A stretch of 31,270 nucleotides of DNA from an uncultured Candidatus Saccharibacteria bacterium (GTDB taxonomy: Bacteria; Patescibacteriota; Minisyncoccia; Minisyncoccales; CG1-02-41-26): NCBI GenBank assembly GCA_964417825.1, contig CAYQJC010000002.1, forward strand, positions 1-31,270. The letters run 5' to 3'. The notes under the pieces were generated by a model that saw nothing but the letters and a program-made list of their open reading frames with translations, ran no database searches and was not told the origin of the DNA. The stretch's first letter is position 1. Each line of letters opens with the position of its first letter. The position numbers and the translations under genes are program-made. Shown here piece after piece: positions 931-20,958 of this stretch.

Positions 931-1055
931 AACCGCTTTCTGTTGCAAGAATTTTTTGTTTCGCTCAAGAATTTTAAAATTATATTATCCCGTCAAAATT
1001 CCAATAAATTCTCGATTCTCCTCCTTACTTGTAACTATAGCAAATAGTAGCTCAT

Positions 1056-1970
1056 TCAGCAATAAGGTTTTAATTCGTCTAGTCCATAGATTTCTGCATA
1101 ACTTTTCCAAACCCCAAAGCAATATTTTTTCAACTTGCAAATTTGACATTGTTTTCCATAAACTTTAGAGGCCTTATTATAATCAAAAAGATTACTTTGG
1201 TTTTTTCTATTTTGCTGAATACATTGGTATTCCATAGAATACTCTTCAAACCCTTTTAAAAAACAAAGGGGAAATCCACAGCCAGAATTCATAAAACTAA
1301 TATTTTTCTCTTGGCAATATTTCATTGCTTGAATTACATAGGGTGCGACTTTTGACATTTTCGGAACTATCCATCTATTTTCCCAAGCCAAACCAGCTGG
1401 TTGAACAAAAGAGAAAGAAAACACATTAATATTCTTCTTTCGATCTATCTTGATTACTTTTTTAAAATTCCGATGGATAAATTTTATAGTCTCTGGTACT
1501 TGCTGATAGTTTAAACTGTTGACTAAGATATTGAAGGTAATAAAAACTCCTTGATTCTGAAGATTTTTAATTCCCTGTACTGCATGTTTAAAGCTACCAG
1601 GAGTTCTAGTTAAAGCATCAAAAGTTTTTTTATCAGAAGAATAAAAAGGAACAAAAGCATGAGTCAAACCACTTCTCCGAAGGCGTTGGGTAAAATATTG
1701 ATAACAGCAAAGCATAGCATTAGTCTGAATGCCGATTCCTTCAATACCTCTCTTTTTAGCATATTTAATTAAATTTATTAAATAAGGATTAAGGGTTGGC
1801 TCACCGCCGGTGAATAACACAACCAAATCCTTTGAGTTAGAAGATAATTCATCGATTTTCTTTTTAGCGGTAATGTAATTGAAAGAATGTTCGTCTTTCT
1901 TGCCTCGGATATTACAAAATATGCAGTTCTGATTACAACTTAAATTTAATCTTAAAATAAATTCTCGCAT
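1056..1970 (-). CDS. Radical SAM protein, HxsC-like paralog
   Basis: CNQNCIFC cluster motif, FTGGEPTL, QTNA, TRTPGSF, C-terminal FPLC...CQICKLKKYCFG. Confidence 0.85.
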   Translation of the reverse strand: MREFILRLNLSCNQNCIFCNIRGKKDEHSFNYITAKKKIDELSSNSKDLVVLFTGGEPTLNPYLINLIKYAKKRGIEGIGIQTNAMLCCYQYFTQRLRRSGLTHAFVPFYSSDKKTFDALTRTPGSFKHAVQGIKNLQNQGVFITFNILVNSLNYQQVPETIKFIHRNFKKVIKIDRKKNINVFSFSFVQPAGLAWENRWIVPKMSKVAPYVIQAMKYCQEKNISFMNSGCGFPLCFLKGFEEYSMEYQCIQQNRKNQSNLFDYNKASKVYGKQCQICKLKKYCFGVWKSYAEIYGLDELKPYC

Positions 1971-1973
1971 AAT

Positions 1974-2906
1974 TTAGGGCCTAAGAATTTTTTTAATTAT
2001 TTTATTTTTATCAACAAATACGGGATAAAGTTCTTTGGCATCATAATATTTACCCATCATATATAACCCAGCACAAATATCATTCAAGAAACAGCTTTTA
2101 CAACATTCAGCTTTGGAATATCTAAAATTTTCTACTCTGACAAATCCTTTTTTATCTAAAAAATGAATGGCCATTTCCTCTCTCTTGACAATCTTTCTGG
2201 TCTCAGTAGAGCAGTGTTCAAAACCGGTCATGTAACAAAGAGGTACTCTCTCCACTCTGAAGGTCCGACCAGTTTTTTGTAAATACTCCATAGCCCGATG
2301 TAAAGATAATTCAAAATCATTTAATCGAGGAATGGTATCGGGATTTTCAGTAGCTCTATTCATTGAAGGGTCTAAATTGTTCCAAACGAAATGCCGCAAA
2401 AATGGAAATCTTTTAGTCAGCCAGATCACGTTTTTATCAAGGTGATCAGCATTATATTTGTTAATAACAGTATTAATATCTACTGTGATTCCTCCAATCT
2501 TTTTTAAGTTCTCCAGGGCTTTTTTGATGTTGGAGAAAGAGTCATCATTCTGAGTAAGGAATCCTTGGATGTCTGGTTTAATGGAATATATGGAAAGATG
2601 AAGATGATAAAGTCCTGAATCTTTGAGAAGCTTGAGATATCCAAAATCTGCTATTTTCTGCCCGTTGGTAATGACTCTGGCATGAATTTTCTTTTTTTTG
2701 CAATAAGAAAGGAATTTTGGTAATTGAGGTGATAAAGTTGGTTCTCCCCCAGTAAAAATAACTCCATCATACCCCTTTTTTATAAAATAATTGATATCAG
2801 AAAGGCCCTCTTGGAAAGAAAGGGTTTTTTTAGTGGGAGGGTTAGAACAAAATCTACATTTCTGATTACATTTCCTTGTAACTTGAATATATCCTAAAGT
2901 AGCCAT
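1974..2906 (-). CDS. Radical SAM protein, HxsC-like paralog
   Basis: CNQKCRFC, FTGGEPTL, ITNGQ, C-terminal VPLC...CKSCFLNDICAG. Confidence 0.85.
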   Translation of the reverse strand: MATLGYIQVTRKCNQKCRFCSNPPTKKTLSFQEGLSDINYFIKKGYDGVIFTGGEPTLSPQLPKFLSYCKKKKIHARVITNGQKIADFGYLKLLKDSGLYHLHLSIYSIKPDIQGFLTQNDDSFSNIKKALENLKKIGGITVDINTVINKYNADHLDKNVIWLTKRFPFLRHFVWNNLDPSMNRATENPDTIPRLNDFELSLHRAMEYLQKTGRTFRVERVPLCYMTGFEHCSTETRKIVKREEMAIHFLDKKGFVRVENFRYSKAECCKSCFLNDICAGLYMMGKYYDAKELYPVFVDKNKIIKKILRP

Positions 2907-2909
2907 ACA

Positions 2910-3887
2910 TTAATAAGCAACATTTACTCCTAAATAGAGATACACTTTATTTTCTCTATTAAATCCGTAATCAACTCCCATAGCCGCTGGGAAAAAGGAT
3001 ATTTGTTTATAAGATTCTCTTTTATATTCTGCAAGATTTTTCTCCCTTTTTGTCGAATTTTTTGATAAAAATTTCCATTTCCTTAAGAGAATTATTTATA
3101 TCTTTTATATCCTTGAAATCATATACTTTATTAATTTTGATTGATTTAAGTGAATGTTTGCTAAATCTATACAAGATGTAGAAATGAGCGCTTTTTTCTC
3201 TGTTTAATAAAAGAAAAATGTTAATAGTGCTTCCTGTTCTTTTAGTTTTATTATTTTTGAAAAATTTATTAATGAGTTCTGGATCAAGTTTTTTGTAACG
3301 ATTATATATTTTCAGATTTTCTTCAGCTGAGGAAAAATCAACAGCAATTATCACATCCGAATCTGGATAGCCAGTTTCTTTAACTACTTTTTATGGTCAA
3401 TAGAAAAAAGCCGACAAACTTCATTGATTTTCTTTACTTTTTCTTTTTTGGAATAATCAAGAGATAATTTGTCAAAATAAATCTTTAATCTATTTGGGAA
3501 TCGCCCTTTGGCTTGTTCAAAACCAAAATATAAGCGGTATCTGTCGGTTAAAGGAAAGATAGAGAAGATTTTCTCTAAATTCTCCATATCATAAATTTTG
3601 TAAAAGGCAAAAATTTTTTTAATCTTACTACAAAACTCCTTTTTCTCCCAATATTTATCTCCAGTAGAATAACTTGAAAACCTGAACGAAGAAAATGGTT
3701 CCGAAGGATTAAATGAAAATTCGAACCACATTTTTTGACTCTTTTTTTTACAATTTTTTAACAATATATCTCTTATTTCTATTAAATTATCTCCTTGTCC
3801 TTGAAAAATTTTTTCAATTAAAAAATCCCAAATCTCCTCAAACTTTTCTTTTTGTATTGGATGTTCAGGAATAATAGCTTTGGCCAT
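2910..3887 (-). pseudogene. Stand-alone paralog of the N-terminal (predicted ABBA prenyltransferase-like) domain of 5007-6953, interrupted by three -1 frameshifts
   Basis: ORFs 3384-3887 and 3022-3354 plus unannotated 2910-3030 align colinearly with the 648-aa protein N-terminus (WFEFSF..PFSSFRF, RLKIYF, DSDVIIAVDF, LKIYN, FFPAAMGVDY..YLYLG). One added base each at 3388-3392, about 3032-3041 and 2992-2996 restores a ~326-aa ORF ending at TAA 2910-2912. Confidence 0.8.
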
Positions 3888-3923
3888 AATGATTAAAATG
3901 AATCAACAAAAATCTTTTTCTCC

Positions 3924-4532
3924 TCATTTGTCTGTAATTGGTGTATTTATATCTACAAGATTGGTTGCTATTTCAGTTATTCTAAATTTTTTTCTAATCC
4001 AAACCTCTACAATTTCATAAGCTCCAAAAAAGCAAGAGACATAAAACAAATTACCTAATAAAGTATTTTTAAAAAATGGTAAAGCCATCGAATAACACTG
4101 GAGTAATCCAGAAAAAGTTTTAGGATACCAGGGAGTAAAACCCCAGACAGCAAGATTAGTTATAAGAAAAAATAAAACTGCACCCAAAATTGAACTTCCA
4201 CAAATTGTATAGCAATTCTTATGTTTTTTTAACCAAATTCCTAAAACACTACACAAAAGGAAGCTTCCATACACAAAAACCATTAAAATTGGCCGATAAA
4301 AACCAAGAAATATATCACTAATCAGCATAGCTAAGAGGGGAGTGGTTAAAGCTATTTTTTTTGAAAAATAAACTCCTCCAAATAAAGCAATGGCAGCAAT
4401 AGGAGTAAAATTAGGGAGATGAGGAAGCAATCTTAAGCTAACTCCTACTAAAATTAAAAGCAAGGCAATCGAAAACTCTATAATTTCACCCTTTTTAGAG
4501 AGATTAATTTTTGATATAAATGTTATTGGCAT
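3924..4532 (-). CDS. DUF6580-like putative membrane transport protein (ECF S-component-like, possibly corrinoid or metal uptake)
   Basis: Multi-TM protein with LPHLPNFTPIAAIALFGG and WY...GLLQCYSMALPFFKNTLLGNLFY motifs; adjacent to a DUF4430-like gene. The substrate is inference. Confidence 0.65.
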   Translation of the reverse strand: MPITFISKINLSKKGEIIEFSIALLLILVGVSLRLLPHLPNFTPIAAIALFGGVYFSKKIALTTPLLAMLISDIFLGFYRPILMVFVYGSFLLCSVLGIWLKKHKNCYTICGSSILGAVLFFLITNLAVWGFTPWYPKTFSGLLQCYSMALPFFKNTLLGNLFYVSCFFGAYEIVEVWIRKKFRITEIATNLVDINTPITDK

Positions 4533-4535
4533 AAA

Positions 4536-4972
4536 TTAAAATGGCGACTTTTCAAATCTAAACTCTACTTTATCTCCTGGTTTTATCTCTTTTTTATCGA
4601 CTGAGACCATTGGCATTTCATTATTAACGTAATACATCCAATACTTTCCATCTTGGCCGTTTTTTTTATTTCCAATAGCTTCAATAAGAATTCCAAAATC
4701 ATAAGTTTTTATTTTTAAGGGTATGTTTAATTCCTCCGTTTTATTTTTTAATAAATCAAAGGCAGTCATGCCCTTACTGAATTCGGCTTTAAGGTTCTTT
4801 AGGCTTCCCTCCCCATCATTAATAACCAAAAAATCACCTTCTCTTGAACATTTTCTTGAGTAATTCCAATTTCCTCTTGAGAAATAGGTTGCCCAACCTT
4901 ACTAGAAAATATTAATATTACTAAGCTGCTAATAACAACGATTATTCCTATTATAATATTTACTTTTTTCAT
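4536..4972 (-). pseudogene. DUF4430 (transcobalamin-C-terminal-like) membrane-anchored protein with one homopolymer frameshift
   Basis: ORF 4536-4829 has TAFDLL, FGILIEAIG, GKYWMYYVNNEMPMVSVD..IKPGDKVEFRF. An upstream ATG at 4970-4972 gives MKKVNIIIGIIVVISSLVILIFSS (signal anchor) and joins this frame only if the A6 run at 4828-4833 changes length (+1 or -2). Confidence 0.7.
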
Positions 4973-5006
4973 TTAAACTTTGGCAATTATAAGTTTGTTT
5001 TATCTT

Positions 5007-6953
5007 TCATCTTATTGGTTTAAGGTCACTTAATCCACCACATCTTCTATACCCTTCGTAAATTCCCGGGCATACTTTCTTCCGTGAGCAAAATTGGCAA
5101 CATTTCCCTTTAATCCTTTGGCCCTCGTCGGTTCTATAAAATCTGTCCTCAAAAACTTCACTCATATACAAGATATTATTTGTCTGAAGATTGTCTTTTA
5201 AATCCGGATTATCCACTAAACAATCTGACAGACCATCAAAGCCAGTTTTTATTTTTTTAGAGATAGCGCAGTGCATAGCTTCGTTTATTGCCAAAGAGGC
5301 TTCTTTAAGCGATGGGATTAATTTATTAAAATTTTTCAAAGCTTCTCCTTTTGGCTCAACCAAAGAAAATTTAATTCGATTGATTTTGAATTCTTCTACT
5401 AAATCAACGATCTTTTTTAGGTCTTTAAGATTGAGCTTCGTAACCACCACATTTACTATTAGCTCAATCTGATGGCTAGAAAGATTTTTAAGAGCTCTCA
5501 GGGTTTGATTAAAACTCCCCGGCGTTCTGGTAATAAAATCGTGCCTTTCCGGATTTGCTGAATTTAAAGTAAGATAAACATATTTTAGATTTCTTTTTAA
5601 AAGATTCTCGGAGAGTTTTCGATAACTTAATAATCTTCCATTGGTGATTAATCCCCAAGGAATCTTTCTTTGCCAGAGGGAATTAACTACTTTAGGAAAA
5701 TCTGGATGTAAAGTCGGCTCACCACCAGAAAAAAGAATCATTTCCGCTCCAATTTGTAATGCCTGATTAATTTTGTTTATTATTTGATGAAATCGAAGAG
5801 GAGGAATATTTCTCTTATCTAAAGCATGGCAAAAAAGGCAGTTATTGTTACATTGGTATTGAATTTTTATCAAGGCTTTTTTTAAATCGATTATCTTTTT
5901 CACTTTCTCACATTTTTGATAGGTAACCTTAGAACCCAAATAGAGGTATGGTCTTCTAAAATTATTTTGAGAAAAATCAATTCCTATCGCACTTGGGAAA
6001 AAAGAATATTTGTCCACAAAATTTCTTTTGAGGATTTGCCATGAATTTTTCTCTTTTTTATTTAATTTACTAAAGAATAATTTTAGCTCCTCGGTTAAAT
6101 TTCCCATACCAGTTATTTTCTGGAACTCATAAATTTTAAAAAATTTGATTGATTCCAGTTCTGAATCTTGATTAAACCGATGAAGAAGATACCAAGAACC
6201 ACTTTTCTCTTTATTTAACAAAAGCAAATTATCAATGAGATTTTTTGATGCTTTCAGGTTATTATTTTTAAAGACCCGGGAAATGAGGTTGCGGTTTAAT
6301 TTTTTATAGTGGTTATATATCTTTAGATTCTTTAGATTTTTTGGAGAAGGGAAAAAATCAATACCAATTAAATCAGAATCTGAAAAATGAGCTATCTTAG
6401 AAATTTTTTCATTATTAAACCCAAGAATCTGACACATCTTATTAATTTTTTTTATCCATTCTTGCCTTGGACAACAATGAGATAATCTCCAAAAATAAAT
6501 TTTTAATCTAGCCGGAAATTTTCCCTTAGATTGAACGAATCCAAAGGATACCTGATATTTATCCAGAGGAAAAAGTGAAAGAATTTTTTCAAGCTTATTA
6601 AAATTATCAATTTGAAATAAATCAAAAATCTTTTTTATTTTGCTGACGAACTCCTCTTTCTCCCAATATTTATCATCACCATCGATTCTGGAACATGCAA
6701 ATCTAAAGGAGGAAAAAGGATTTGGGAGAATAAATGAGAATTCAAACCATATCTGCTTTGGGAAGATGTTATCACCCTCATCGAGAAAGATATTTCTAAT
6801 TTTTTTTAGTTTGCCTAAGCTTTCTAAATGAGCTTTTCTAATTAAAAATTCCCAAGCCTCTTCCAGAACTTCTTTCTCTACTCCTTGCTTAAATTTAACT
6901 GGTTTAATAGCTTCTAATCCTCTGTAATTTTTAAAATTTTTTATAATTTTCAT
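5007..6953 (-). CDS. Two-domain protein: predicted ABBA/DMATS-type prenyltransferase-like N-terminal domain fused to an HxsC-like radical SAM domain
   Basis: The C-terminal ~290 aa carry CNNNCLFC, FSGGEPTL, ITNGR, TRTPGSF and CQFCSRKKVCPG (radical SAM, confident). The N-terminal ~345 aa show five beta-hairpin-like motifs with FEFSF..FRF, RLKIYF and LKIY (prenyltransferase call is inference). Confidence 0.7.
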   Translation of the reverse strand: MKIIKNFKNYRGLEAIKPVKFKQGVEKEVLEEAWEFLIRKAHLESLGKLKKIRNIFLDEGDNIFPKQIWFEFSFILPNPFSSFRFACSRIDGDDKYWEKEEFVSKIKKIFDLFQIDNFNKLEKILSLFPLDKYQVSFGFVQSKGKFPARLKIYFWRLSHCCPRQEWIKKINKMCQILGFNNEKISKIAHFSDSDLIGIDFFPSPKNLKNLKIYNHYKKLNRNLISRVFKNNNLKASKNLIDNLLLLNKEKSGSWYLLHRFNQDSELESIKFFKIYEFQKITGMGNLTEELKLFFSKLNKKEKNSWQILKRNFVDKYSFFPSAIGIDFSQNNFRRPYLYLGSKVTYQKCEKVKKIIDLKKALIKIQYQCNNNCLFCHALDKRNIPPLRFHQIINKINQALQIGAEMILFSGGEPTLHPDFPKVVNSLWQRKIPWGLITNGRLLSYRKLSENLLKRNLKYVYLTLNSANPERHDFITRTPGSFNQTLRALKNLSSHQIELIVNVVVTKLNLKDLKKIVDLVEEFKINRIKFSLVEPKGEALKNFNKLIPSLKEASLAINEAMHCAISKKIKTGFDGLSDCLVDNPDLKDNLQTNNILYMSEVFEDRFYRTDEGQRIKGKCCQFCSRKKVCPGIYEGYRRCGGLSDLKPIR

Positions 6954-8368
6954 TTTTTAATCGTTTTAATCGGCTTTAAAATCTTATAGCCGAAATTGCG
7001 AATATAGTTTATATGAACACCCGGACAGCTTTTAAAATATTTACATTTCCGACATCTGATACTTTTGGTATAGTACTTTTTTAAGATGAACCAATCGGTG
7101 TATTTATAAATATCAATAAAACCTCCTCTATAGATTTCAGAAATATCACTATCCTTTTCTGTAACAATCTCGCCTTTGGGATACAGACATATGGGAATGT
7201 TTTCAATCTTAAACCCTGGGAGTTTAACTTTACTAAAAAAACTTCTTAAATTTATATCATTTTTTTTAGATTGAGATAAAAGGTGGTGATTTTCTTGAAA
7301 AAAAACAATTTTATCTCGAAATCTATAAAGTTTTTTTAAATTCCTTAAAATCCAATCTTTGGTTCTTTTATTAATGGCAATCTCAAAACATCCTTTTTGA
7401 GCAAAATTAATTTTTTTTATATCATTCTCATTTTTTATTAAAGTCACAGATTTCTTTGAAAAATCTCTTTTTGTCTCTGGATGTTTAACCAAGAGCAACT
7501 GGAAACAGAAATCTTTTAAAAAACACCATTTACATCTTTCCCCCCAACAAGGCATAAGTTTATCCTCTCTTAAAAATTTGTTAAACAAACCTTCTCTTCC
7601 CTTCACCTCATCGTATAATTTCACCGGATCCTGGATTAAATCCTCAGACCCCTCAAGATAGGGAGGAGGAAATCGGTTGGTCCAAAGATGAACTCTTGAA
7701 TCATGGGAAATCTTAAAAGCTCTTTTAAGATAAGGTAAAGCGTCTTCAATTTTGTAAAAAACTTTCTTTTTGTTTTTCCAAGCATCGCCAAAAGGAATGA
7801 TTTGTAAAAGATCGAATTCATAAACTCCAAGACCCATAAAAAATTTTATAATTTCAGGAAGTCGTCGATAATTAATTTTATTTATAACAATATCTATATT
7901 CACAATCAGCCCCTTGCAACTTAAAGCATTGATTAATCCCGTCATCGCTTGAGAGAAAGAACCCTTAACTTGACTTTGAACTTCATATAATTTTTCAGTA
8001 TGACCATGAATTGAAAAAGTAATTTCATCTACCCCCCTTTCAATGGCTTTTTTAAGAAATCCTTTGTAGCTGAACATTCGGCCATTGGTAATTATCTGGA
8101 CTTTTTTGTAACCAAGTTCTTTAGTAAATTCTACTACTTCTAGAAATTGTGGATGTAAAGTCGGCTCTCCTCCCGAAAGCACCGCTCTTTCAGCTCCGTT
8201 CTTAATTCCCTCCTTTAACTTTTCTTTTATTATCTTTAAGGGAACGAAGGTTCCATCCTGAGAGGGTCTATCCAAACAAAAAATGCACCGGTTATTACAG
8301 CACCGAGTTAACCTAACCCACTGACGTCTTTCCTGGGAAGCTTTTTCTTTCTCCAATAATCTGTTCAT
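6950..8368 (-). CDS. Radical SAM protein, HxsC-like, with an extra C-terminal Cys module
   Basis: CNNRCIFC, LSGGEPTL, ITNGR; two C-terminal Cys sets, CKWCFLKDFC and IPICL...CRKCKYFKSCPG. Confidence 0.85.
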   Translation of the reverse strand: MNRLLEKEKASQERRQWVRLTRCCNNRCIFCLDRPSQDGTFVPLKIIKEKLKEGIKNGAERAVLSGGEPTLHPQFLEVVEFTKELGYKKVQIITNGRMFSYKGFLKKAIERGVDEITFSIHGHTEKLYEVQSQVKGSFSQAMTGLINALSCKGLIVNIDIVINKINYRRLPEIIKFFMGLGVYEFDLLQIIPFGDAWKNKKKVFYKIEDALPYLKRAFKISHDSRVHLWTNRFPPPYLEGSEDLIQDPVKLYDEVKGREGLFNKFLREDKLMPCWGERCKWCFLKDFCFQLLLVKHPETKRDFSKKSVTLIKNENDIKKINFAQKGCFEIAINKRTKDWILRNLKKLYRFRDKIVFFQENHHLLSQSKKNDINLRSFFSKVKLPGFKIENIPICLYPKGEIVTEKDSDISEIYRGGFIDIYKYTDWFILKKYYTKSIRCRKCKYFKSCPGVHINYIRNFGYKILKPIKTIKK

Positions 8369-8380
8369 GATAAGATAAAA

Positions 8381-9271
8381 TTATTTAACCGGCTTAAACT
8401 CCTCCCAGCCAAAATGTTCTGGATATTCTCGCCAAGGTCCTTCGCAAATTTTAAAATATTTACACCTCTTGCAACTTTCCGCTTTGGTTTTACCTTCCTC
8501 TTTTCTCGCTTTAGTGAAATTAATTATTTGATCTCGCTCAAATACTGTAGTATCTGGTATAATTTTCTCAGCAATATAATCTTCATAGCCTTTCATAAAA
8601 CAGAGGGGAATGGCTTCAGTCATTACTCTCTTGCCGGCTTTTCGTCCAATATCTAACCCTTCTTTCACGAAGGGTTCAACTAAGCTTTTTCTTGGAACAA
8701 TTGAATCAAAATTTTCTTCTGCCCTGCCCAAAGCATGAGGGAAGGCAAATTGAAACTGATCTACTCCAAGTTTCACCAGAAGCTTTGCAATCTCGGGAAG
8801 ATGTCGATAGTTAGACTTAGTAATAACAGTATTGGTTACTACCGCAACTCCCAGTAATTTGAGATTTTTTATCCCTCTCACTGTTTGGGAAAAACTTCCT
8901 TTAACGGTCGTTAAATAATCATGAAGTTGAGGAATATGCCCGTGTAAAGCAGGTGAAAATTCGTTGGCTCCAGCTAAAATTGTTTTTTTGCAAAATTCTT
9001 TGTAAGCGAACATCCTGCCATTAGTTTGGATTTGGATAATCTTAAATTTTAGATTACTAGCATATCTTACTAATTCTAAAAAATCTTTTCTTATTGTCGG
9101 TTCTCCACCAGTGAAGACTACTCCCTGACAATTTTCTTTTTTTGCCTTCCTTAGGGCTTCTTTAACTTCCTGGGTAGTTTTATCGGGATAAATCTCTCTT
9201 TTGTTACCTTGAACGCAAAAACGACATCTATTATTACAAGAAAACCCCACTTTTATATCTGCTCTTTTCAT
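8381..9271 (-). CDS. Radical SAM protein, HxsC-like paralog
   Basis: CNNRCRFC, FTGGEPTI, QTNGR, IPLC...CKRCKYFKICEG; first gene after precursor 9406-9660. Confidence 0.85.
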   Translation of the reverse strand: MKRADIKVGFSCNNRCRFCVQGNKREIYPDKTTQEVKEALRKAKKENCQGVVFTGGEPTIRKDFLELVRYASNLKFKIIQIQTNGRMFAYKEFCKKTILAGANEFSPALHGHIPQLHDYLTTVKGSFSQTVRGIKNLKLLGVAVVTNTVITKSNYRHLPEIAKLLVKLGVDQFQFAFPHALGRAEENFDSIVPRKSLVEPFVKEGLDIGRKAGKRVMTEAIPLCFMKGYEDYIAEKIIPDTTVFERDQIINFTKARKEEGKTKAESCKRCKYFKICEGPWREYPEHFGWEEFKPVK

Positions 9272-9293
9272 AAAATCTTCCGTGTCTCAGCTT

Positions 9294-9321
9294 ATTATAA
9301 TAAAAAAAGAGATTTTAGCAA
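9294..9321 (-). promoter_or_regulatory. Sigma70-type promoter for the 9271->1056 maturase operon
   Basis: Minus strand TTGCTA (9321-9316), 16 nt, TATAAT (9299-9294), 22 nt upstream of the ATG at 9271. Confidence 0.55.
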
Positions 9322-9322
9322 T

Positions 9323-9405: not shown

Positions 9406-9660
9406 TTACCAATTTCCATGGGAACCATGGGAACCATGGGAACCATGAGAACCATGGGAAGTATGAGAAGCATGACGTCCTCGAGCTCCTGAGTTGTGAA
9501 AATAATTGCTGTGTCCAGCGTGAGTAATAGTTGCATCTAAAGCGATCCCAATTACAGCTAAAGCAGCTCCAATTTTAGCAATACTTTTTTTACTTATTTT
9601 CCCCTCTTCGGAGTTAAGAAAAGTTCTAAGATTTTTTTTGATTTTTGGAATTTTCTTCAT
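9406..9660 (-). CDS. hxsA: His-Xaa-Ser repeat precursor peptide 1 (HxsA-like)
   Basis: 84 aa: basic leader, FLNSEEGKISKK, hydrophobic stretch, THA-G, then HNS...HAS HTS HGS HGS HGS HGS HGN W; located in a cluster with HxsB and HxsD. Confidence 0.85.
   Translation of the reverse strand: MKKIPKIKKNLRTFLNSEEGKISKKSIAKIGAALAVIGIALDATITHAGHSNYFHNSGARGRHASHTSHGSHGSHGSHGSHGNW
9416..9460. repeat. Five tandem 9-bp units (ccatgggaa x3, ccatgagaa, ccatgggaa) encoding Ser-His-Gly repeats
   Basis: Read directly from the sequence; in frame within hxsA1. Confidence 0.95.
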
Positions 9661-10708: not shown

Positions 10709-11857
10709 TTAACGGAAAATAGCTAAAATAATGCTCAAAATGGAATTTTGGGTAACTAAAGTAATAATAAACCCCAAAAATAAAAAAGGAGAAAATGGGA
10801 AAGTACGATAAATTTTTAATTTCTTTTCCGGTTCCTGACCCCAGATCTTCCTAATGAAATTTACCTGATCCTCAGTTAGTCCCTCAGAGAAAAAAGACCC
10901 TATTTTAGCTTCTATTTCTTTTTTTGTTTTTAATTGCATCTTTTTCAAGAGTTCTCTTAAAGTTGTTTGAGAAAGAATCATCTGAGGTCGGAGCTCTTTT
11001 AATTTTATTTCTCTGGTTTCTTTCTTTTCAATGTAAAAATCTAATATCTGACGAAGCAAGTTTATAATGACCATAAAAAATAAAGCAGTTTTAAGAATAT
11101 TAAAAAGAACTCCTAATTGAGAAGTGCTCACTAAGTACCCACTGTAAACCAAAGAGCCAATTCCTAATCCTAAAACAACTTTTTTCTTTTTACCTAAAAT
11201 TCTAAAAATAACTCTATAAGAGAAAAAGATAACAAAGAAAATTAAAACTGGATTTGAAATAACAGAGCTGAGCTGCTGAGAAACCTGGGCCCTTGCTAAA
11301 TGTAAAATAATAAATATCGAAATAAACCCTACAAAAGTACCGGCTATCTTCTTGACTTTCGGTTTAATCTCAATAAATAGTTTTTTCAAAGAACTAAAAT
11401 TAATTTTGGTCTTTTTTATCTTTAAAATTTCTTTTATCCCTATTACTGAACCTTGAATCACCAAAAGAATAAGTAAAGGAAAAAAGGTATTAACTAAGAG
11501 ACAAAAAGAAGGAAAATAAGGTAGATAACTTTTTGAATAAAATTTTAAAGGCAAAAGCAAAGCATATAAAGTGAAAAGTTTAGCATCACCAGCTGACCAG
11601 AGATTAAAATACCAAATCCCATAACCTACCAAAAAGGCAATTCCTCCATTTAATAAAAGGTTTAGTAAATAGCGATCATTCTCCGGCTCATGAAGATAAA
11701 AAAGATTGTAAAGAAATAGTCCGAGATAAAGAAAAATCGCCCACATTAAACCAAAAAGAATCCACTTATTTTTAATTTTCCCATACCTAATATCAGTGAA
11801 ACAACAAATACCACCAACAATAAAAAGAGGGGTTAAGAATAAAAAATCAATAATCAT
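10709..11857 (-). CDS. A24-family prepilin/preflagellin-type aspartic peptidase with an extended membrane region
   Basis: Catalytic-type motifs TDIRYGKIKN and SAGDAKL, many TM segments, KELRPQMIL and C-terminal FPFSPFLFLG. Confidence 0.8.
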   Translation of the reverse strand: MIIDFLFLTPLFIVGGICCFTDIRYGKIKNKWILFGLMWAIFLYLGLFLYNLFYLHEPENDRYLLNLLLNGGIAFLVGYGIWYFNLWSAGDAKLFTLYALLLPLKFYSKSYLPYFPSFCLLVNTFFPLLILLVIQGSVIGIKEILKIKKTKINFSSLKKLFIEIKPKVKKIAGTFVGFISIFIILHLARAQVSQQLSSVISNPVLIFFVIFFSYRVIFRILGKKKKVVLGLGIGSLVYSGYLVSTSQLGVLFNILKTALFFMVIINLLRQILDFYIEKKETREIKLKELRPQMILSQTTLRELLKKMQLKTKKEIEAKIGSFFSEGLTEDQVNFIRKIWGQEPEKKLKIYRTFPFSPFLFLGFIITLVTQNSILSIILAIFR

Positions 11858-14294: not shown

Positions 14295-14843
14295 TCAATT
14301 TTTAGAGCCAGAGGGCTTTTTATTTGATTTTTTCTTTTTCTCTTCTTCTTCCAACTTTTCAAGCGCCTTTAAATAATGGCGGCTTAATTCAAAAGCTGGA
14401 GGTGAAAATTTTTGGATTTGTTCCATCCGTTTTTGGAAAATTTTCAAGATTCTAATGGTATCAATAACACTAAGATGATAGTCGATAAATCTCCGAATGG
14501 CAAATATTGTCTCTCGTATCTCTATTTGTCTACCAACTTCCTCATTCCAAGCAGAAGCAAGAATAATAAATTCATTAACTAAATCTTTAAGAATCGGGGT
14601 GAGGGGTTGCTCAATGACAATTCTTAATAAAAGATTTAATATTTGTTTTATTTGGCTTTTTTCTTCTTCATTAACCCTAACTTTTCTTTTTTTTCGTTTT
14701 TCTTTCAATTGTCCGCCCATTAGCTCAACAGTTTTCTTGACTAAATCTAATTTCTCTTGGGTGAGAACGGAGTAAATCTGAATATGGCCCAAAATCTCCT
14801 TTAGTTTTTTAATATTTGGTTGATAAATAATTTTATTCTTCAT
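14295..14843 (-). CDS. Hypothetical helical protein coupled to the radical SAM pair
   Basis: 182 aa; start overlaps the upstream radical SAM stop by 11 nt; FSPPAFELSRHYL segment; no recognised family. Confidence 0.7.
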   Translation of the reverse strand: MKNKIIYQPNIKKLKEILGHIQIYSVLTQEKLDLVKKTVELMGGQLKEKRKKRKVRVNEEEKSQIKQILNLLLRIVIEQPLTPILKDLVNEFIILASAWNEEVGRQIEIRETIFAIRRFIDYHLSVIDTIRILKIFQKRMEQIQKFSPPAFELSRHYLKALEKLEEEEKKKKSNKKPSGSKN

Positions 14844-16161
14844 TAATAAATTCTTCTAGTAGATTTAGAGAAACCTTTTTATCTTTATTTAATTTCTCAA
14901 AAATTCTATCATAGATTCCTAATCTCTTATATGTTTTTATCATAGTTAAAATTTTAGCATGTTCAAGTTGGCAAACGGTGGGAATAGGTGAAAATAAATC
15001 TCCGGTTGTTTCGTATTGAGCCCCGAGACATCCCCCAGAACACAAATACTTTAAAGGGCAACTTTCACATATCGGAGCGGTTTTAATATCGAAGGTAATT
15101 GAGCCTATAAGTAATTCTGGGTTCTTACTTTCTATGCCGATAATTCTGCCATTTTTAACAATAAACCTTCCCAATTCAAATGGGGAATAAGATGTCCTAT
15201 GGCAAGGAATAAATGTTAAATCGCCTAATCTTAAATGAAAAGTGGATTGAAGAGAACAGCCTATTCCCCTACCAACAGTTGTTAAGGGAGAATGTAAAAT
15301 GTTATAACCTTTCTTATTGAATACGAAGTCGAGGAAATTGCCTTTGTTTTTTTGGCAAGGAAAATAGTAAGTCCATTCAATCAGAAACTCTATAAATCTC
15401 ATAAACTCTTTAATCTGTTTTTTTGACCACTCAACATTTCTGACTTCTAGTAAATAAATATTAAAAAAGGGAATGTTAAATTTTTTAAAGTTTTTTTGAA
15501 ACCAAAGAAAATTTTTCTGCCAATTCTCAATAAGTACAGAATAAATCATTGGATGGAATCCATAACAATACTTTTTATTAAAAGCGAAAACTCTCTCATA
15601 ATATTCATTATTCCGTTTTTCTTTTCCTGTCTTAAATGGTCTGTTTTTCTCACAATATTTTCCATCAAAGGAAGCTGATAAAATAATAGGCATTTCTAAT
15701 TCTCTTGAAGCTTGGATAAGTTCCTCAACCCGCTTAGTTTTTTCTGGCGAAAGCAGAAAGGTGTAATTGGTAGGAATAACAATGCTCTTTGGCCGATTTT
15801 TTACTGATTTAAACTTATTCAAAATTAGCTCTAAAGCCTTAAATCCTAGTTCCTGCGAGAAAGGTTCACCCCCAAAAATCTCAATTTTTGGATAATATCC
15901 CTTCCGAATAAGCCAGTCTAAAAACAGCGAGAGATTTCTTAAAAGAATTTTTGGGCTTTGAATTTCTATTGGATAAAGTTCTTCACCATAATTAGCCACA
16001 TAACAATATTTGCATTTTAAATTACAAGAAGTATTTAAGAAAATCTCTAACTGTTCAAAGTTAACCAAATCTTCCTTCCAACCCTTGAAAAAAGTGTGGT
16101 TTAAAAATGAATTTACTAATTTGTTATTTTCTTTTTGATAAAGTTTTATTTTTTCTGCCAT
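14833..16161 (-). CDS. Radical SAM/SPASM peptide maturase (non-HxsB/C type)
   Basis: CNLKCKYC, FGGEPF, SPASM-type GIGC..PCHRT..CESCPLKYLCSGGC..VC. Confidence 0.85.
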   Translation of the reverse strand: MAEKIKLYQKENNKLVNSFLNHTFFKGWKEDLVNFEQLEIFLNTSCNLKCKYCYVANYGEELYPIEIQSPKILLRNLSLFLDWLIRKGYYPKIEIFGGEPFSQELGFKALELILNKFKSVKNRPKSIVIPTNYTFLLSPEKTKRVEELIQASRELEMPIILSASFDGKYCEKNRPFKTGKEKRNNEYYERVFAFNKKYCYGFHPMIYSVLIENWQKNFLWFQKNFKKFNIPFFNIYLLEVRNVEWSKKQIKEFMRFIEFLIEWTYYFPCQKNKGNFLDFVFNKKGYNILHSPLTTVGRGIGCSLQSTFHLRLGDLTFIPCHRTSYSPFELGRFIVKNGRIIGIESKNPELLIGSITFDIKTAPICESCPLKYLCSGGCLGAQYETTGDLFSPIPTVCQLEHAKILTMIKTYKRLGIYDRIFEKLNKDKKVSLNLLEEFINEE

Positions 16162-17519
16162 TCTATATATTCTTTTAAAATTTCTTCAAAAGCACCGTTA
16201 GCAAAAAGTCTTATCATTGAGATGGGAGAAAAATGAATAACTCCAGTATTTAAGACATTTTCTGTAGGACATCCAAGGGCTAGATTTAAAAAAATAGCAA
16301 ATAAAATTGCCAAATCTTCATCTAAATAGCATTCGCTTGCTTGACCAACTAAAACAAGCTCCTGAAGCATTGCTAATGTGTAGCTGATTTTTAATCTAGT
16401 AAAATCGTGGTAGTTTCGCCCTACATAAAAAAGTCTTATTTTTTCTTCTAGTTTATTTATATCTACTATAAACTTATTTTTAATTAAATCTAAATTTCCT
16501 TTTTCAAACAAACTTACATCCCAATTTTTTATTTCTTCATTTTTTAAAATACTCTCAATGTACTCTTGATTATTTAAAAAGAAAGAGCGATGGCAAATAT
16601 GCAAATCATTGTCTATTCCCACTCCAAAATTACTATCTCCTCCGCTACAGGTGAACATATAAGGTTTGATAAATAACTCATTCTGATAGTCAAATAATCT
16701 CTTTAGGCGATAAACATAGGTATTTAAAGAACTTTTGACATACTTCCAATGTTGATTTTTTTTATTTTGCTTTCCTAAAATCCTTAAATTTCTAAAGAAA
16801 ATTGCTAATTCTTTCCCGTCAACTGAGGTATATTTCCCAGGGCAAACTAAAGTTGGAGTACAACTAGTTAGCAAACTTACTTTTTGATTTTTGTTCTTTC
16901 TTTTAAATTCTTGGAAAATTTTCTCAAAGAAATCGAAATATTTTCTTAATCTTTCCTTTTTCTTATTCAAGATCTTAATATTGTCAATTGATAAAGTTGG
17001 CTTTAGCGAAAATCTAACATTTAGATTGGTTAAGTTTATGGTATTTAATTTGCTGATTAAATAAAAAAAATTTTCAGTTATTTTTTTTGTTGCTCCAGGA
17101 CCTCTATTGATATCGGTAATAAAATCAGGACCATCTATGGAAATTTGGACTTTAAGATTAATTTTTTTCCTGGTTTTGGTTAAGGCTTTGATAAAATTCA
17201 AAATAATCTCCGGGTTGGTCAAGAGATTGGTCGAAAAAGAGATTCCCACCAGCTTAGGGAAAGTTTTGAAAAGAAAAGATAAAGATTTTTGAATTTTTTT
17301 TAGGGTTAATGTCGGTTCGGTCCCCCAGAATCCTAAATATTGAAGATTCTGACCGTAAGCTCTTTTTAAGGTATCGAGATACTCTCTCTGGTCAAGGTTA
17401 GTTATTATCTTATCTTGGAGAAATCCCATCTGGGAAGTTTTTGGGATATAACAATACTTACAGTTTAAAGGACAGGTAGCTGAAGAGAATAACTCTGTTG
17501 AAACCATTCTTTTGTTCAT
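16146..17519 (-). CDS. Radical SAM peptide maturase with a reduced SPASM/Twitch-like tail (non-HxsB/C type)
   Basis: CPLNCKYC, WGTEPTL, SIDGP, FTCSGG..HICHRS..LGCP; first gene after precursor 2. Confidence 0.85.
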   Translation of the reverse strand: MNKRMVSTELFSSATCPLNCKYCYIPKTSQMGFLQDKIITNLDQREYLDTLKRAYGQNLQYLGFWGTEPTLTLKKIQKSLSFLFKTFPKLVGISFSTNLLTNPEIILNFIKALTKTRKKINLKVQISIDGPDFITDINRGPGATKKITENFFYLISKLNTINLTNLNVRFSLKPTLSIDNIKILNKKKERLRKYFDFFEKIFQEFKRKNKNQKVSLLTSCTPTLVCPGKYTSVDGKELAIFFRNLRILGKQNKKNQHWKYVKSSLNTYVYRLKRLFDYQNELFIKPYMFTCSGGDSNFGVGIDNDLHICHRSFFLNNQEYIESILKNEEIKNWDVSLFEKGNLDLIKNKFIVDINKLEEKIRLFYVGRNYHDFTRLKISYTLAMLQELVLVGQASECYLDEDLAILFAIFLNLALGCPTENVLNTGVIHFSPISMIRLFANGAFEEILKEYIEWQKK

Positions 17520-17560: not shown

Positions 17561-17995
17561 TTAAGCAAGCAGATTGAGATTTGTATAATCGTCAGTATAA
17601 TTGGTACTAAGAGCAACTGTTTTTTCAGCAGACTTATCACTCAGACAGTGTCCACCTAAATCATCGCTGAAATATATTGAATTATCGGCAGACTTATCGG
17701 CAGAACATCCACCATTATCGTGAGACCCATGAGAACCATGGGAGCCATGGGAATTGTGGGAACTGTGATTACTGTGAGAACCGTGGTCTCCTCTGGCTCC
17801 TGAGTTGTGGAAGGCGCTTGAGTGGGGGGTGGAACTTGAATGGCCAGCCCAGATATTCTTGGCTCCAAAAATAGTAGCCAAGAGAGTTAAACCTAGTCCA
17901 AGCTTGAGGGCATTCTTTTTACTAATCTTTCCTTCTTCTGAAGAGAGGAAAGATTTAAGATTCTTTTTGATTTTGGGGAGGTTTTTCTTTTTCAT
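17561..17995 (-). CDS. hxsA: His-Xaa-Ser repeat precursor peptide 2 with an acidic Cys-containing C-terminal extension
   Basis: Same leader as hxsA1 (PKIKKNLKSFLSSEEGKISKK), IWA-G, HSS..HSS..HNS GARGD HGS HSN HSS HNS HGS HGS HGS HDN, then GGCSADKSAD...GGHCLSDKSAE. Confidence 0.85.
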   Translation of the reverse strand: MKKKNLPKIKKNLKSFLSSEEGKISKKNALKLGLGLTLLATIFGAKNIWAGHSSSTPHSSAFHNSGARGDHGSHSNHSSHNSHGSHGSHGSHDNGGCSADKSADNSIYFSDDLGGHCLSDKSAEKTVALSTNYTDDYTNLNLLA

Positions 17996-20274: not shown

Positions 20275-20470
20275 TTTTCATTTCGGCTAAAACATAATTA
20301 GAAAATTCGTCCTTTATTATATTTTTAACATCTTTATCTATTTTACTAAGCTCTACTTTTATTTTATTCTTTTCCTCTTTAGTTCCAAACTTAGCCAAAT
20401 TCTTATAGGCCTTGATCGCTTTTTTTACAGCACTGAGTTTGTAAAATCCCTTATTAAAAACAATAGTCAT
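20264..20470 (-). CDS. Short HxsD-like protein
   Basis: 68 aa, FNKGFYKLSAVKKAIKAY...DEFSNYVL, parallel to INPQLYPLEAIYGASYVF...REFLNEIL in 20506-20958; overlaps the hxsB start. Confidence 0.65.
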   Translation of the reverse strand: MTIVFNKGFYKLSAVKKAIKAYKNLAKFGTKEEKNKIKVELSKIDKDVKNIIKDEFSNYVLAEMKNEH

Positions 20471-20505: not shown

Positions 20506-20958
20506 TCATTTTGACTTTTTAGTTTTGACTTTTGATTTTTTACCGTACTTCTCTTCCCAGGGAATAGCAATTCCTAAAGGGTCTTTCTCCCAATCTTCCT
20601 CTGTCCTTCCTTGTTCCAATTCTTCTTGACCTATGGCGGCCAGAAGTGCTTGACCTACAATATATTCTCTAATTTTTTGATTGTGTTTTGAGATTTTCTC
20701 TCTTAGGGTATAATTCAAAATTTCATTTAAAAACTCTCTTGCTAACTCCTCCAATTTCTTTTTGGTCATTTTCTCCTTACCTTTAATAAAAACTTTCACC
20801 TCTTTTTTAGGATTTCCATCCAAAAACAAATAAGCTCGGTCAATGAAAACATAACTTGCTCCATAGATTGCTTCTAAGGGATAGAGTTGAGGGTTGATTT
20901 TAACAGTAATTCTGTTTTCTTTTTTATTAAGTTTAAAATTTACTTTTTTATGACTCAT
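20506..20958 (-). CDS. hxsD: His-Xaa-Ser system protein HxsD
   Basis: EFLNEILNYTLREKI..IREYIVGQAL resembles the HxsD LLNDYxLRE signature; located upstream of hxsB. Confidence 0.75.
   Translation of the reverse strand: MSHKKVNFKLNKKENRITVKINPQLYPLEAIYGASYVFIDRAYLFLDGNPKKEVKVFIKGKEKMTKKKLEELAREFLNEILNYTLREKISKHNQKIREYIVGQALLAAIGQEELEQGRTEEDWEKDPLGIAIPWEEKYGKKSKVKTKKSK

What the first reader, a model, noticed from the sequence alone, without database searches (positions are those of the whole stretch)
1056..9271. Five divergent HxsC-like paralogs in one operon, physically separated from HxsB
Seen: 1056, 1974, 5007 (C-terminal domain), 6950 and 8381 share CxxxCxxC near the domain start, GGEPT(L/I), TN(G/A), a GSF segment in most, and a C-terminal PLC-type Cys plus CxxCx5CxG tail. 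hxsB lies 9.6 kb away beside the other precursor. Established: hxsB and hxsC are normally an adjacent pair. Inference: paralog expansion for division of labour over different triplets (HNS, HAS, HTS, HGS, HGN) or sequential modifications.
Basis: partly seen in the sequence, partly recalled or inferred. Interest (0 to 1): 0.65.

Follow-up and report, generated by a model that had tools for sequence, protein, structure and literature searches.

The report
Five ancient HxsC-like radical SAM genes
Five neighbouring genes in a tiny uncultured bacterium are old, distinct relatives of HxsC, the enzyme that matures His-X-Ser repeat proteins, and they form the tailoring part of a much enlarged version of that system that is widespread in uncultured microbes but whose chemistry is unknown and which I found undescribed in the papers I could search.

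Summary
Genes 1056-1970, 1974-2906, 5007-6953 (C-terminal half), 6950-8368 and 8381-9271 (all minus strand) are full-length homologues of each other (25-34% identity). They share the radical SAM motif, GGEPT, TNG/A, and a Cys plus CxxCx5CxG tail that canonical HxsC also has. Trees place all five with canonical HxsC, apart from MoaA, NirJ and SPASM enzymes. None reaches the HxsC or HxsC4 model cut-offs, and the genome lacks the subfamily closest to canonical HxsC.

This is not a local expansion. The five belong to five separate families, and an AU test rejects their monophyly. Three of them (8381, 6950, 1974) form a syntenic triad found in 26 of 80 surveyed loci from Patescibacteria, Omnitrophota, Elusimicrobiota, Myxococcota and DPANN archaea, and fused two-domain forms exist. 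Four of the five are under purifying selection.

Separation from HxsB is real (9.6 kb) and is common in this variant. Of 10 genomes with an array but no HxsB within 10 kb, 9 encode HxsB elsewhere.

One enzyme per triplet type is not supported. Successive, distinct steps on the HxsA4-type precursor is the best reading, but it is untested. I found no description of this enlarged variant in the searchable literature.

The parts
8381..9271 (-). Paralog 1 (296 aa), family OG-A. A twitch-type radical SAM enzyme with 3 + 4 conserved Cys, encoded directly after the HxsA4 precursor gene.
   Evidence: NCBIfam gives HxsC4 185 bits (cut-off 500) and HxsC 109 bits (cut-off 268). More than 120 orthologues at 61-69% identity occur across phyla. 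The OG-A clade has 100/99 support. The AF2 model has pLDDT 94.9, and its best PDB match is the RiPP maturase SkfB. dN/dS is 0.13.
6950..8368 (-). Paralog 2 (472 aa), the C6950 family. Radical SAM core, then Cx4CxxCx5C (residues 274-288), then an extension with PIC (394) and CxxCx5C (439-448). This gives 11 family-invariant Cys, so three Fe-S clusters are predicted.
   Evidence: Motifs are shown, and the invariant Cys. Orthologues share 50-62% identity over the first ~290 residues, in forms of about 377 aa and 690 aa. The clade has 100/100 support. dN/dS is 0.20-0.24.
5007..6953 (-). Paralog 3 (648 aa), a fusion. The N-terminal ~345 aa (about 5916-6953) is a prenyltransferase-like (ABBA-fold) domain. 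The C-terminal ~298 aa (about 5007-5903) is an HxsC-like radical SAM domain of an orphan lineage.
   Evidence: The radical SAM half scores HxsC4 109 bits and HxsC 99 bits. Only one close fusion orthologue was found (P0388, 90%) and one distant one. In tree 2 it sits on a long lone branch with P0388. The N-domain model has pLDDT 61 and pTM 0.65, shows five helix-helix-strand-strand repeats, and its listed top 50 PDB matches are all ABBA aromatic/peptide prenyltransferases. dN/dS is 0.19-0.30.
1974..2906 (-). Paralog 4 (310 aa), the C1974 family.
   Evidence: HxsC is the top NCBIfam hit at 91 bits. Orthologues share 44-58% identity, and many multi-domain proteins match. The clade has 100/100 support. 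It is 81% identical to the L043 gene, with dN/dS 0.08.
1056..1970 (-). Paralog 5 (304 aa), the OG-B grade, the sister group of the C1974 family.
   Evidence: NCBIfam gives HxsC4 109 bits and HxsC 90 bits; the HxsC alignment covers 34-291 of 292 profile positions. It falls in a 14-row clade with the C1974 family at 98/96 support, nearest to the L040 297-aa gene. OG-B-like domains are often fused to other HxsC-like domains. No close orthologue was available for dN/dS.
9406..9660 (-). HxsA4-type precursor (84 aa): conserved leader, a hydrophobic segment, then HNS HAS HTS HGSx4 HGN and a terminal W.
   Evidence: NF038313 scores 61.2 bits (cut-off 55). Similar precursors lie next to arrays in other phyla.
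18847..20274 (-). HxsB, a radical SAM/SPASM maturase, 9.6 kb upstream of the array.
   Evidence: TIGR03978 scores 514 bits (cut-off 370).
20264..20470 (-). HxsD-like small protein (68 aa).
   Evidence: NF038315 scores 70 bits (cut-off 41). It is conserved between HxsD and HxsB in relatives.
20506..20958 (-). HxsD (150 aa).
   Evidence: TIGR03976 scores 64 bits (cut-off 50).
17561..17995 (-). Second HxS-repeat precursor (144 aa). It heads the inserted module that separates HxsB from the array.
   Evidence: HxsA3 scores 55.6 bits and HxsA4 51.1 bits, both just under their cut-offs.
14833..17519 (-). Two further radical SAM genes (442 aa with a SPASM domain; 457 aa). They are not HxsC-like.
   Evidence: Their best NCBIfam hits are PapB and nif11-type maturases. 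BLAST against the five gives E 0.018 or worse.
10709..11857 (-). A24 (prepilin-peptidase)-like membrane protein. In most related clusters it closes the array; here it lies upstream of the precursor.
   Evidence: Pfam Peptidase_A24 scores 24.3 bits (cut-off 26.5). Synteny is shown.
3022..3887 (-). Broken second copy of the prenyltransferase-like gene (fragments 3384-3887 and 3022-3354), lying between paralogs 3 and 4.
   Evidence: The fragments are 93% and 89% identical to an intact 326-aa gene in L043.
3924..4829 (-). DUF6580 membrane protein (3924-4532) and DUF4430 protein (4536-4829), inserted within the array.
   Evidence: Pfam gives 180 bits and 58 bits respectively. The same pair is conserved in L043.

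Best explanation
The five genes are old, functionally distinct members of the HxsC superfamily. Together they form the tailoring array of an enlarged, HxsA4-type His-Xaa-Ser maturation system.

Each gene encodes a predicted active radical SAM enzyme with the SAM cluster plus a C-terminal four-Cys auxiliary cluster. 6950 is predicted to carry two auxiliary clusters, and 5007 carries an added prenyltransferase-like domain.

Shown here: family membership, age, conservation, synteny, purifying selection, and genome-level coupling to HxsB.

Inferred: with HxsB, HxsD and the HxsD-like protein, they act on the His-Xaa-Ser repeat core of the precursor encoded directly upstream (9406-9660), and probably on the second precursor as well. 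Each enzyme would carry out a different chemical step in succession, or as one complex, rather than each serving a different triplet. The product would then be exported or membrane-anchored.

The 9.6 kb gap to hxsB arose from a second precursor module inserted between the HxsD-HxsB head and the array.
For: Relationship among the five and to HxsC:
- The five are homologous end to end.
- HxsC4 and HxsC are the top two of 18,950 NCBIfam families for four of the five; for 1974 HxsC is first and HxsC4 fifth.
- They share the PxC + CxxCx5CxG tail with canonical HxsC.
- A starred clade holds the five together with canonical HxsC, apart from MoaA, NirJ, TIGR04053 and HxsB (98/96; 95/94).

Age and conservation:
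- The five sit in five separate families, four of them with 98-100 support.
- Monophyly of the five is rejected.
- The order OG-A, C6950 family, C1974 family recurs in 26 of 80 loci from many phyla and from DPANN archaea. In 13 of 30 loci with full flanks, HxsB lies within 10 kb of the array, and where HxsD, the HxsD-like gene and the precursor are also in view they usually precede it in that order.
- A distant cluster, L040, carries orthologues of four of the five behind HxsD, HxsD-like and HxsB.
- Fused two- to five-domain proteins of these families exist.
- dN/dS is 0.08-0.30 for four of the five.

Coupling to HxsB:
- Array and HxsB co-occur in relatives (6/2/2/51, Fisher p = 1.3e-5).
- 9 of 10 genomes with an unlinked array still encode HxsB.

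Fold and precedent:
- The 8381 model is closest to the peptide maturase SkfB.
- Canonical HxsC acts on HxsA together with HxsD (PMC13128918).
Against: - There is no biochemical or expression evidence for any of these genes.
- None of the five reaches the HxsC or HxsC4 cut-offs.
- All five lack the ~90-residue N-terminal domain of canonical HxsC.
- The subfamily closest to canonical HxsC (OG-F) is absent from this genome.
- In 17 of 30 fully flanked loci no HxsB lies within 10 kb. Some arrays sit beside nitrogenase-like genes instead, so another substrate is possible.
- An HxsC-like enzyme also occurs in a non-HxS (NHLP-type) peptide cluster on a Clostridium perfringens plasmid.
- 1056 could not be tested for selection.
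Confidence: 0.7

Rival explanations
1. Each paralog serves a different triplet type. On this reading each enzyme recognises one kind of His-Xaa-Ser triplet (HNS, HAS, HTS, HGS, HGN) and performs the same chemistry on it.
For: The two window precursors carry five X residues in their HxS runs (A, G, N, S, T) and there are five paralogs. There is a weak positive trend across clusters (rho 0.37).
Against: The trend is not significant (p = 0.13, n = 18). There are clear counter-examples: L044 has 5 domains with only HGS, L045 has 7 domains with 2 types, and G046 has 9 domains with 3 types. The paralogs also differ in cluster number and added domains, which points to different chemistry.
Confidence: 0.1
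2. The array is an independent system that does not act on HxS peptides. On this reading the HxsC-like array, together with the A24-like membrane protein, makes or modifies something else (a cofactor, a lipid or another protein) and is only sometimes placed near the HxsB/HxsA genes.
For: In 17 of 30 fully flanked loci there is no HxsB or HxS precursor within 10 kb. Elusimicrobiota arrays lie beside three nitrogenase-component-1-like genes, as noted in 10.1101/765248. The lipid enzyme GDGT-MAS is among the top structural matches.
Against: 9 of 10 such genomes encode a true HxsB elsewhere. Array and HxsB co-occur among relatives (p = 1.3e-5). In this window the precursor gene ends 134 nt before paralog 1, and the same arrangement recurs in many phyla. 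The best structural match is a peptide maturase.
Confidence: 0.12
3. The five are recent, redundant or decaying copies. On this reading they arose by local duplication, and most are redundant or on the way to loss.
For: A broken prenyltransferase-like gene lies inside the array. Copy number differs even between near-identical relatives: L042 has an extra copy and L043 lacks 1056.
Against: Identity among the five is only 25-34%. Monophyly is rejected. Each lies in its own old family. All catalytic Cys and the GGEP motif are intact. dN/dS is 0.08-0.30.
Confidence: 0.03

Closest known systems
Canonical HXS (His-Xaa-Ser) system hxsD-hxsB-hxsC-hxsA of Pseudomonadota (TIGR03976-03979; antiphage system, Li et al., Nat Commun 2026, PMC13128918)
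   Same: Both have HxsD and HxsB above the model cut-offs, a His-Xaa-Ser repeat precursor, and radical SAM enzymes of the HxsC superfamily with the same PxC + CxxCx5CxG tail.
   Different: Here there are five HxsC-like genes instead of one, and none reaches the HxsC cut-off. All lack the N-terminal ~90 residues of HxsC. They are not adjacent to hxsB. The precursor is a short HxsA4 type with no Pfam domain hit, so no peptidoglycan-binding domain was detected. There are also extra genes: an HxsD-like protein, Cys-rich membrane proteins, an A24-like protein, two SPASM enzymes and a prenyltransferase-like domain. The published survey found 99.8% of systems with four genes and 99.7% in Pseudomonadota.
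NCBIfam HxsA4 / HxsC4 / HxsD-like models (NF038313, NF038332, NF038315)
   Same: The precursor and the small HxsD-like protein pass their cut-offs. HxsC4 is the best-scoring family for four of the five paralogs.
   Different: The paralogs score 57-185 bits against a cut-off of 500. No gene in 61 relatives or 400 genomes of the phylum reaches the cut-off. The models do not capture the multi-paralog arrays.
Twitch- and SPASM-domain radical SAM peptide maturases (SkfB, SuiB)
   Same: Both have a radical SAM core followed by a Cys-rich auxiliary-cluster domain. SkfB is the best PDB match of the 8381 model (E 4e-12, TM 0.67).
   Different: Sequence identity is about 20%. There is no N-terminal peptide-recognition (RRE-type) domain. 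The Cys pattern is different, and 6950 has two four-Cys motifs that are not in the SPASM arrangement.
Radical SAM suites beside 'group VI' nitrogenase paralogs in groundwater Elusimicrobia (Meheust et al., bioRxiv 10.1101/765248)
   Same: The same HxsC-like families (C6950 family, C1974 family, A24-like protein, OG-A) sit next to three nitrogenase-component-1-like genes in an Elusimicrobia locus.
   Different: That paper did not link these enzymes to HxsC or to His-Xaa-Ser peptides, and it proposed tetrapyrrole or cofactor chemistry. This window has no nitrogenase-like genes.

Membership tests
HxsC (TIGR03977 equivalog) | Score at or above the curated cut-off of 267.9 bits | tested here: not met
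   The five score 90.2, 91.0, 99.2, 103.1 and 108.6 bits. A whole-genome search finds no match over the cut-off.
HxsC (TIGR03977 equivalog) | Gene adjacent to hxsB (the 'paired' radical SAM) | tested here: not met
   The nearest paralog starts 9,576 bp from hxsB. Canonical loci have the two genes adjacent or overlapping.
HxsC (TIGR03977 equivalog) | N-terminal domain of ~90 residues before the CxxxCxxC motif | tested here: not met
   Four paralogs start 11-23 residues before the motif, and 5007 has an unrelated prenyltransferase-like domain there. The alignment with five canonical HxsC proteins shows that N-domain is missing in all five.
HxsC superfamily (clade) | Groups with canonical HxsC apart from other radical SAM families | tested here: met
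   The clade is starred at 98/96 and 95/94. The outgroups were MoaA, NirJ, TIGR04053, HxsB and SPASM enzymes.
HxsC superfamily (clade) | C-terminal PxC ... CxxCx5CxG four-Cys motif | tested here: met
   The motif is present in canonical HxsC and in all five paralogs. 6950 has it displaced into an extension and carries an extra Cx4CxxCx5C.
HxsC4 (NF038332) | Score at or above the cut-off of 500 bits | tested here: not met
   The five score 57-185 bits.
HXS system (as characterised in E. coli) | The four components HxsA, HxsB, HxsC and HxsD in the order D-B-C-A | tested here: not met
   HxsD, HxsB and HxsA-type precursors are present, but the order is D, D-like, B..., A, then five HxsC-like genes, and there are many extra genes.
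HXS system (as characterised in E. coli) | HxsA effector with a peptidoglycan-binding domain | tested here: not met
   Neither precursor (84 aa and 144 aa) has any Pfam domain hit.
HXS system (as characterised in E. coli) | Antiphage activity | not testable with these tools
   PADLOC gives only generic radical SAM (pVip) similarity.
Twitch-domain radical SAM peptide maturases | Radical SAM core plus a C-terminal auxiliary Fe-S domain with a matching fold | tested here: inconclusive
   The model has pLDDT 94.9. The best PDB match is SkfB (TM 0.67), followed by BlsE, GDGT-MAS and SuiB. Cluster binding was not modelled.
ABBA aromatic/peptide prenyltransferases (N-domain of 5007-6953) | Ten-strand barrel built from five helix-helix-strand-strand repeats | tested here: inconclusive
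   The model shows the five repeats and its listed top 50 PDB matches are all ABBA prenyltransferases (TM ~0.6, 8-14% identity). Confidence is low, however (pLDDT 61, from a 5-sequence alignment), and there is no Pfam or NCBIfam hit.

The most novel reading that the evidence does not exclude
A conserved multi-enzyme radical SAM line is shared across bacterial phyla and DPANN archaea. Its core is the OG-A, C6950-family, C1974-family triad plus an A24-like membrane protein, with lineage-specific additions such as a prenyltransferase fusion. It would convert a genetically encoded (His-Gly/Ser-Ser)n repeat into a heavily modified exported peptide or polymer of a chemical class not yet described. 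The three-cluster 6950-type enzyme and the other paralogs would each install a different modification.
Probability: 0.3. Interest if true: 0.85.

Novelty: new variant of a known kind. Interest (0 to 1): 0.6.

Why it matters
The His-Xaa-Ser system was characterised only in 2026, as a four-gene antiphage system. It was reported to be almost confined to Pseudomonadota, with a single HxsC and a still undefined +8 Da modification.

This locus and its relatives show that the HxsC family has a much larger and older radiation. Arrays of about 4-9 distinct HxsC-like enzymes are coupled to HxsB and to short HxS-repeat precursors, in ultra-small bacteria and archaea and in several other phyla.

In this 0.52 Mb genome the whole cluster (about 1056-20958) takes roughly 4% of the DNA, which argues for an important role.

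The findings also give a testable link for the unexplained radical SAM suites beside the 'group VI' nitrogenase-like genes of Elusimicrobia. In addition, they define conserved enzyme sets (the triad, and the three-cluster 6950 family) that could be reconstituted to find out what chemistry is done on His-Xaa-Ser repeats.

Tried and rejected
- Promoter and terminator scan of 900-9800. Counts were at or below the shuffled expectation. There was only a weak hairpin after the precursor gene (9403-9386), so this gives no evidence for or against a single operon.
- Sequencing-run search for expression.
- PADLOC scan. It gave only generic similarity to viperin-type radical SAM cores, and that release has no HXS models.
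- Type IV pilus idea. I asked whether the A24-like gene marks a pilus locus and the array modifies pilins. PilB and PilC genes lie near the array in one relative (G026), but not in this window (whose neighbours are ClpP, trigger factor, H+-pyrophosphatase and PNPase), nor in loci L075 and L099. I rejected this as a general explanation.
- One enzyme per triplet type. The correlation was not significant and there are counter-examples.
- Phylum-wide search with the HxsC4 model. No other genome among 400 had a match, so the trait is rare in the phylum at large but enriched in the window's own family and order, at 8 of 61 genomes.
- Search for a true HxsC4 member to place in the tree. None was found in the genomes searched.

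Full report
**What is there**

The window is one contig of a 524 kb, 40-contig genome that is 92% complete. Its closest relatives are labelled Patescibacteria, Parcubacteria or Saccharibacteria.

All genes between 1056 and 20958 lie on the minus strand. Read in the direction of transcription, the cluster is:
- HxsD (20506-20958; TIGR03976, 64 bits against a cut-off of 50)
- an HxsD-like 68-aa protein (20264-20470; NF038315, 70 against 41)
- HxsB (18847-20274; TIGR03978, 514 against 370)
- a Cys-rich membrane protein
- a second HxS precursor (17561-17995)
- two non-HxsC radical SAM genes (16146-17519 and 14833-16161)
- several small genes, more Cys-rich genes, and an A24-like membrane protein (10709-11857)
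- the HxsA4 precursor (9406-9660; NF038313, 61 against 55)
- the five genes of the finding, with DUF4430, DUF6580 and a broken prenyltransferase-like gene lying between the third and the fourth

**Check of the observation**

The five proteins align end to end at 25-34% identity (E 1e-21 to 1e-44). They have only marginal similarity to the other three radical SAM enzymes of the cluster.
- 1974 has DSF rather than GSF.
- 5007 has SDC rather than PLC.
- 6950 has no Cys at the aligned PLC position. It has Cx4CxxCx5C at 274-288, plus PIC at 394 and a second CxxCx5C at 439-448.

hxsB is 9,576 bp from the first paralog. 'One operon' is inferred only from the shared strand and short gaps.

**Are they HxsC-like?**

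- Of 18,950 NCBIfam models, HxsC4 and HxsC are the two best hits for four of the five. For 1974, HxsC is first and HxsC4 fifth. All scores (57-185 bits) are far below the cut-offs of 500 and 268.
- An alignment with five canonical HxsC proteins taken from annotated plasmids shows the same PxC + CxxCx5CxG four-Cys tail. It also shows that canonical HxsC has an extra ~90 residues at the N-terminus that all five lack.
- In a maximum-likelihood tree, the five, 32 homologues from related genomes, canonical HxsC and one Clostridium perfringens plasmid enzyme form a starred clade (98/96). MoaA, NirJ, a TIGR04053 enzyme, HxsB and SPASM enzymes fall outside it. A second tree with better sampling gives the same result (95/94).

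So they belong to the HxsC superfamily but are not members of the HxsC or HxsC4 equivalogs. The subfamily that is sister to canonical HxsC (99/98) is a 312-aa group I call OG-F. It scores 165 bits on TIGR03977 and is present in relatives but absent from this genome.

**Age and conservation**

- 8381 belongs to a family (OG-A) with more than 120 orthologues at 61-69% identity. In one genome per species, it has relatives at 53-69% identity in Patescibacteria, Omnitrophota, Elusimicrobiota, Myxococcota, Planctomycetia, Spirochaetes, Verrucomicrobia and DPANN archaea.
- 6950 has hundreds of orthologues at 50-62% identity over its first ~290 residues.
- 1974 has orthologues at 44-58% identity.
- 1056 groups with an OG-B grade that is sister to the C1974 family (98/96).
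- Only the 5007 radical SAM domain is an orphan. It has one 90%-identical fusion orthologue, one 89%-identical domain fused to a B12-type radical SAM in L043, and otherwise nothing above 40%.
- The AU test rejects a tree in which the five are one clade (log-likelihood 66 lower, p = 0.0076).
- dN/dS against close metagenomic relatives is 0.08-0.30 for 8381, 6950, 5007 and 1974.

**Arrays are the rule in this variant**

- Among 61 related genomes, 8 carry such genes, and several carry many: 11, 8, 5, 4 and 3 copies. In 400 genomes spread over the phylum, no other genome has them.
- Around 80 OG-A genes from different species, the 30 loci with full 10 kb flanks hold a median of 4 HxsC-clade domains (range 1-9), and 21 of them hold 4 or more.
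- Two syntenic array types recur. The first is OG-A, C6950 family, C1974 family, A24-like protein (26 of 80 loci). The second is OG-A, OG-E, OG-D, OG-C, OG-F, A24-like protein (12 of 80 loci).
- The window has the first type. The 5007 fusion, DUF4430, DUF6580 and the broken prenyltransferase-like gene are inserted between 6950 and 1974, OG-B (1056) is appended, and the A24-like gene is moved upstream.
- A distant cluster, L040, has HxsD, HxsD-like, HxsB, a precursor and orthologues of four of the five.
- Fifteen fused two-domain ORFs were found in the survey, and proteins with up to five such domains exist. This argues that the paralogs work together.

**Relation to HxsB**

In canonical systems hxsB and hxsC are adjacent. 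In this variant, HxsB lies within 10 kb of the array in 13 of 30 fully flanked loci. Where HxsD, the HxsD-like gene, HxsB and a precursor are all in view, they usually precede the array in that order.

Of 10 genomes whose array has no HxsB within 10 kb, 9 have a bona fide HxsB elsewhere. In a complete Myxococcota chromosome the two are 1.1 Mb apart. Among the 61 relatives, array and HxsB co-occur (6/2/2/51, Fisher p = 1.3e-5), and the four discordant genomes are incomplete or have the gene at a contig edge.

The 9.6 kb gap here is therefore real but not exceptional for the variant. It is filled by a second precursor module.

**Functional differentiation**

- The AF2 model of 8381 (pLDDT 94.9) is closest to the peptide maturase SkfB, followed by BlsE, GDGT-MAS and SuiB.
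- The C6950 family has 11 Cys that are invariant or nearly so (one is present in 19 of 21 sequences) in a 3 + 4 + 4 pattern, so three Fe-S clusters are predicted. The other paralogs have 3 + 4.
- The N-domain of 5007 gives a low-confidence model (pLDDT 61) with five helix-helix-strand-strand repeats. Its listed PDB matches are all ABBA prenyltransferases, including the peptide prenyltransferases PatF, PagF and LimF.
- These differences fit different chemistry per paralog. The idea of one paralog per triplet type does not fit the data: rho 0.37, p 0.13, with clusters of 5-9 domains whose precursors use only 1-3 triplet types.

**What it does**

The chemistry is unknown. In E. coli, HxsB and HxsC, with an HxsC-HxsD complex, are needed for processing of HxsA and for a +8 Da change on one SHRSS motif, and the matured protein blocks phage DNA entry (PMC13128918).

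By analogy, I propose that the five enzymes, with HxsB, HxsD and the HxsD-like protein, modify the HxS core of the precursor in successive distinct steps before export.

Whether the product serves defence is open. The patchy distribution fits a defence role. So does the uneven synonymous divergence along the cluster against L043, where dS ranges from 0.06 to 1.6. The very high conservation of OG-A across domains of life does not fit it.

**Literature**

I found no paper describing multi-HxsC arrays. Meheust et al. (10.1101/765248) noted large radical SAM suites beside 'group VI' nitrogenase paralogs in Elusimicrobia, without linking them to HxsC. One surveyed Elusimicrobia locus shows exactly these HxsC-like families next to three nitrogenase-component-1-like genes.

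Earlier notes of this scan describe the same enlarged system in other genomes. They agree with this report, but they are not independent evidence.

Noticed in passing
window 6950-8368: The C6950 family has 11 Cys that are invariant or nearly so across 21 diverse orthologues (one is present in 19 of 21), in a 3 + 4 + 4 pattern. The second four-Cys set looks like a duplicated copy of the HxsC-type tail. Short (~377 aa) and long (~450-490 aa) forms differ by an insert of about 100 residues between the two sets.
   Followed up: partly
L043 (JGI 3300014869 contig) versus window 1974-8368: Synonymous divergence between adjacent orthologous genes is very uneven: DUF6580 dS 0.06, the 5007 domain 0.33, 6950 0.69 and 1974 1.58. 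This suggests the cluster is a recombination mosaic.
   Followed up: partly
L043:2629-4905 versus window 5007-6953: The same radical SAM domain (89% identical) is fused to a B12-binding radical SAM N-terminal part in L043, but to a prenyltransferase-like domain in the window. In L043 the prenyltransferase-like gene is a separate, intact 326-aa ORF.
   Followed up: partly
window 3022-3887: A second copy of the prenyltransferase-like gene is broken into at least two ORF fragments. An intact orthologue exists in L043 (93% and 89% identity to the fragments).
   Followed up: partly
L034:6001-6915 (Clostridium perfringens plasmid NZ_CP075938.1): A full-length HxsC-superfamily enzyme (30% identical to 8381) lies in a cluster with an NHLP-type precursor, two DUF6365 proteins, another radical SAM gene, mtnK and metK. 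The family therefore also occurs outside His-Xaa-Ser clusters.
   Followed up: no
L075 (Elusimicrobia MAG JACQWX010000103.1): The C6950-family, C1974-family, A24-like, OG-A array is directly preceded by three nitrogenase-component-1-type (Oxidored_nitro) genes and followed by a type I restriction-modification methylase (HsdM).
   Followed up: partly
window 1-948: Directly downstream of the array there is a secreted protein with repeated GWAWSENIGWISFN motifs and an Ig_Rha78A_N domain. A 576-aa protein with the same Ig domain follows the A24-like gene in L040.
   Followed up: no
precursors in L044-L117 and window 9406-9660: HxsA4-type precursors from many phyla share the leader (I/L)PKIKKN(I/L)KxFLxSEEGK and almost always end in an aromatic residue (W or Y), sometimes followed by Cys, right after the HxS run.
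   Followed up: no
window 9386-9403 (minus strand): A weak terminator-like hairpin lies just after the HxsA4 stop codon, followed by promoter-like hexamers at 9321-9294. Neither is above chance expectation in the scan.
   Followed up: no
L042:7633-8577: A near-identical relative (97-98% protein identity for the neighbouring genes) has an extra 314-aa HxsC-like gene between the 8381 and 6950 orthologues. Copy number therefore varies between close strains.
   Followed up: no
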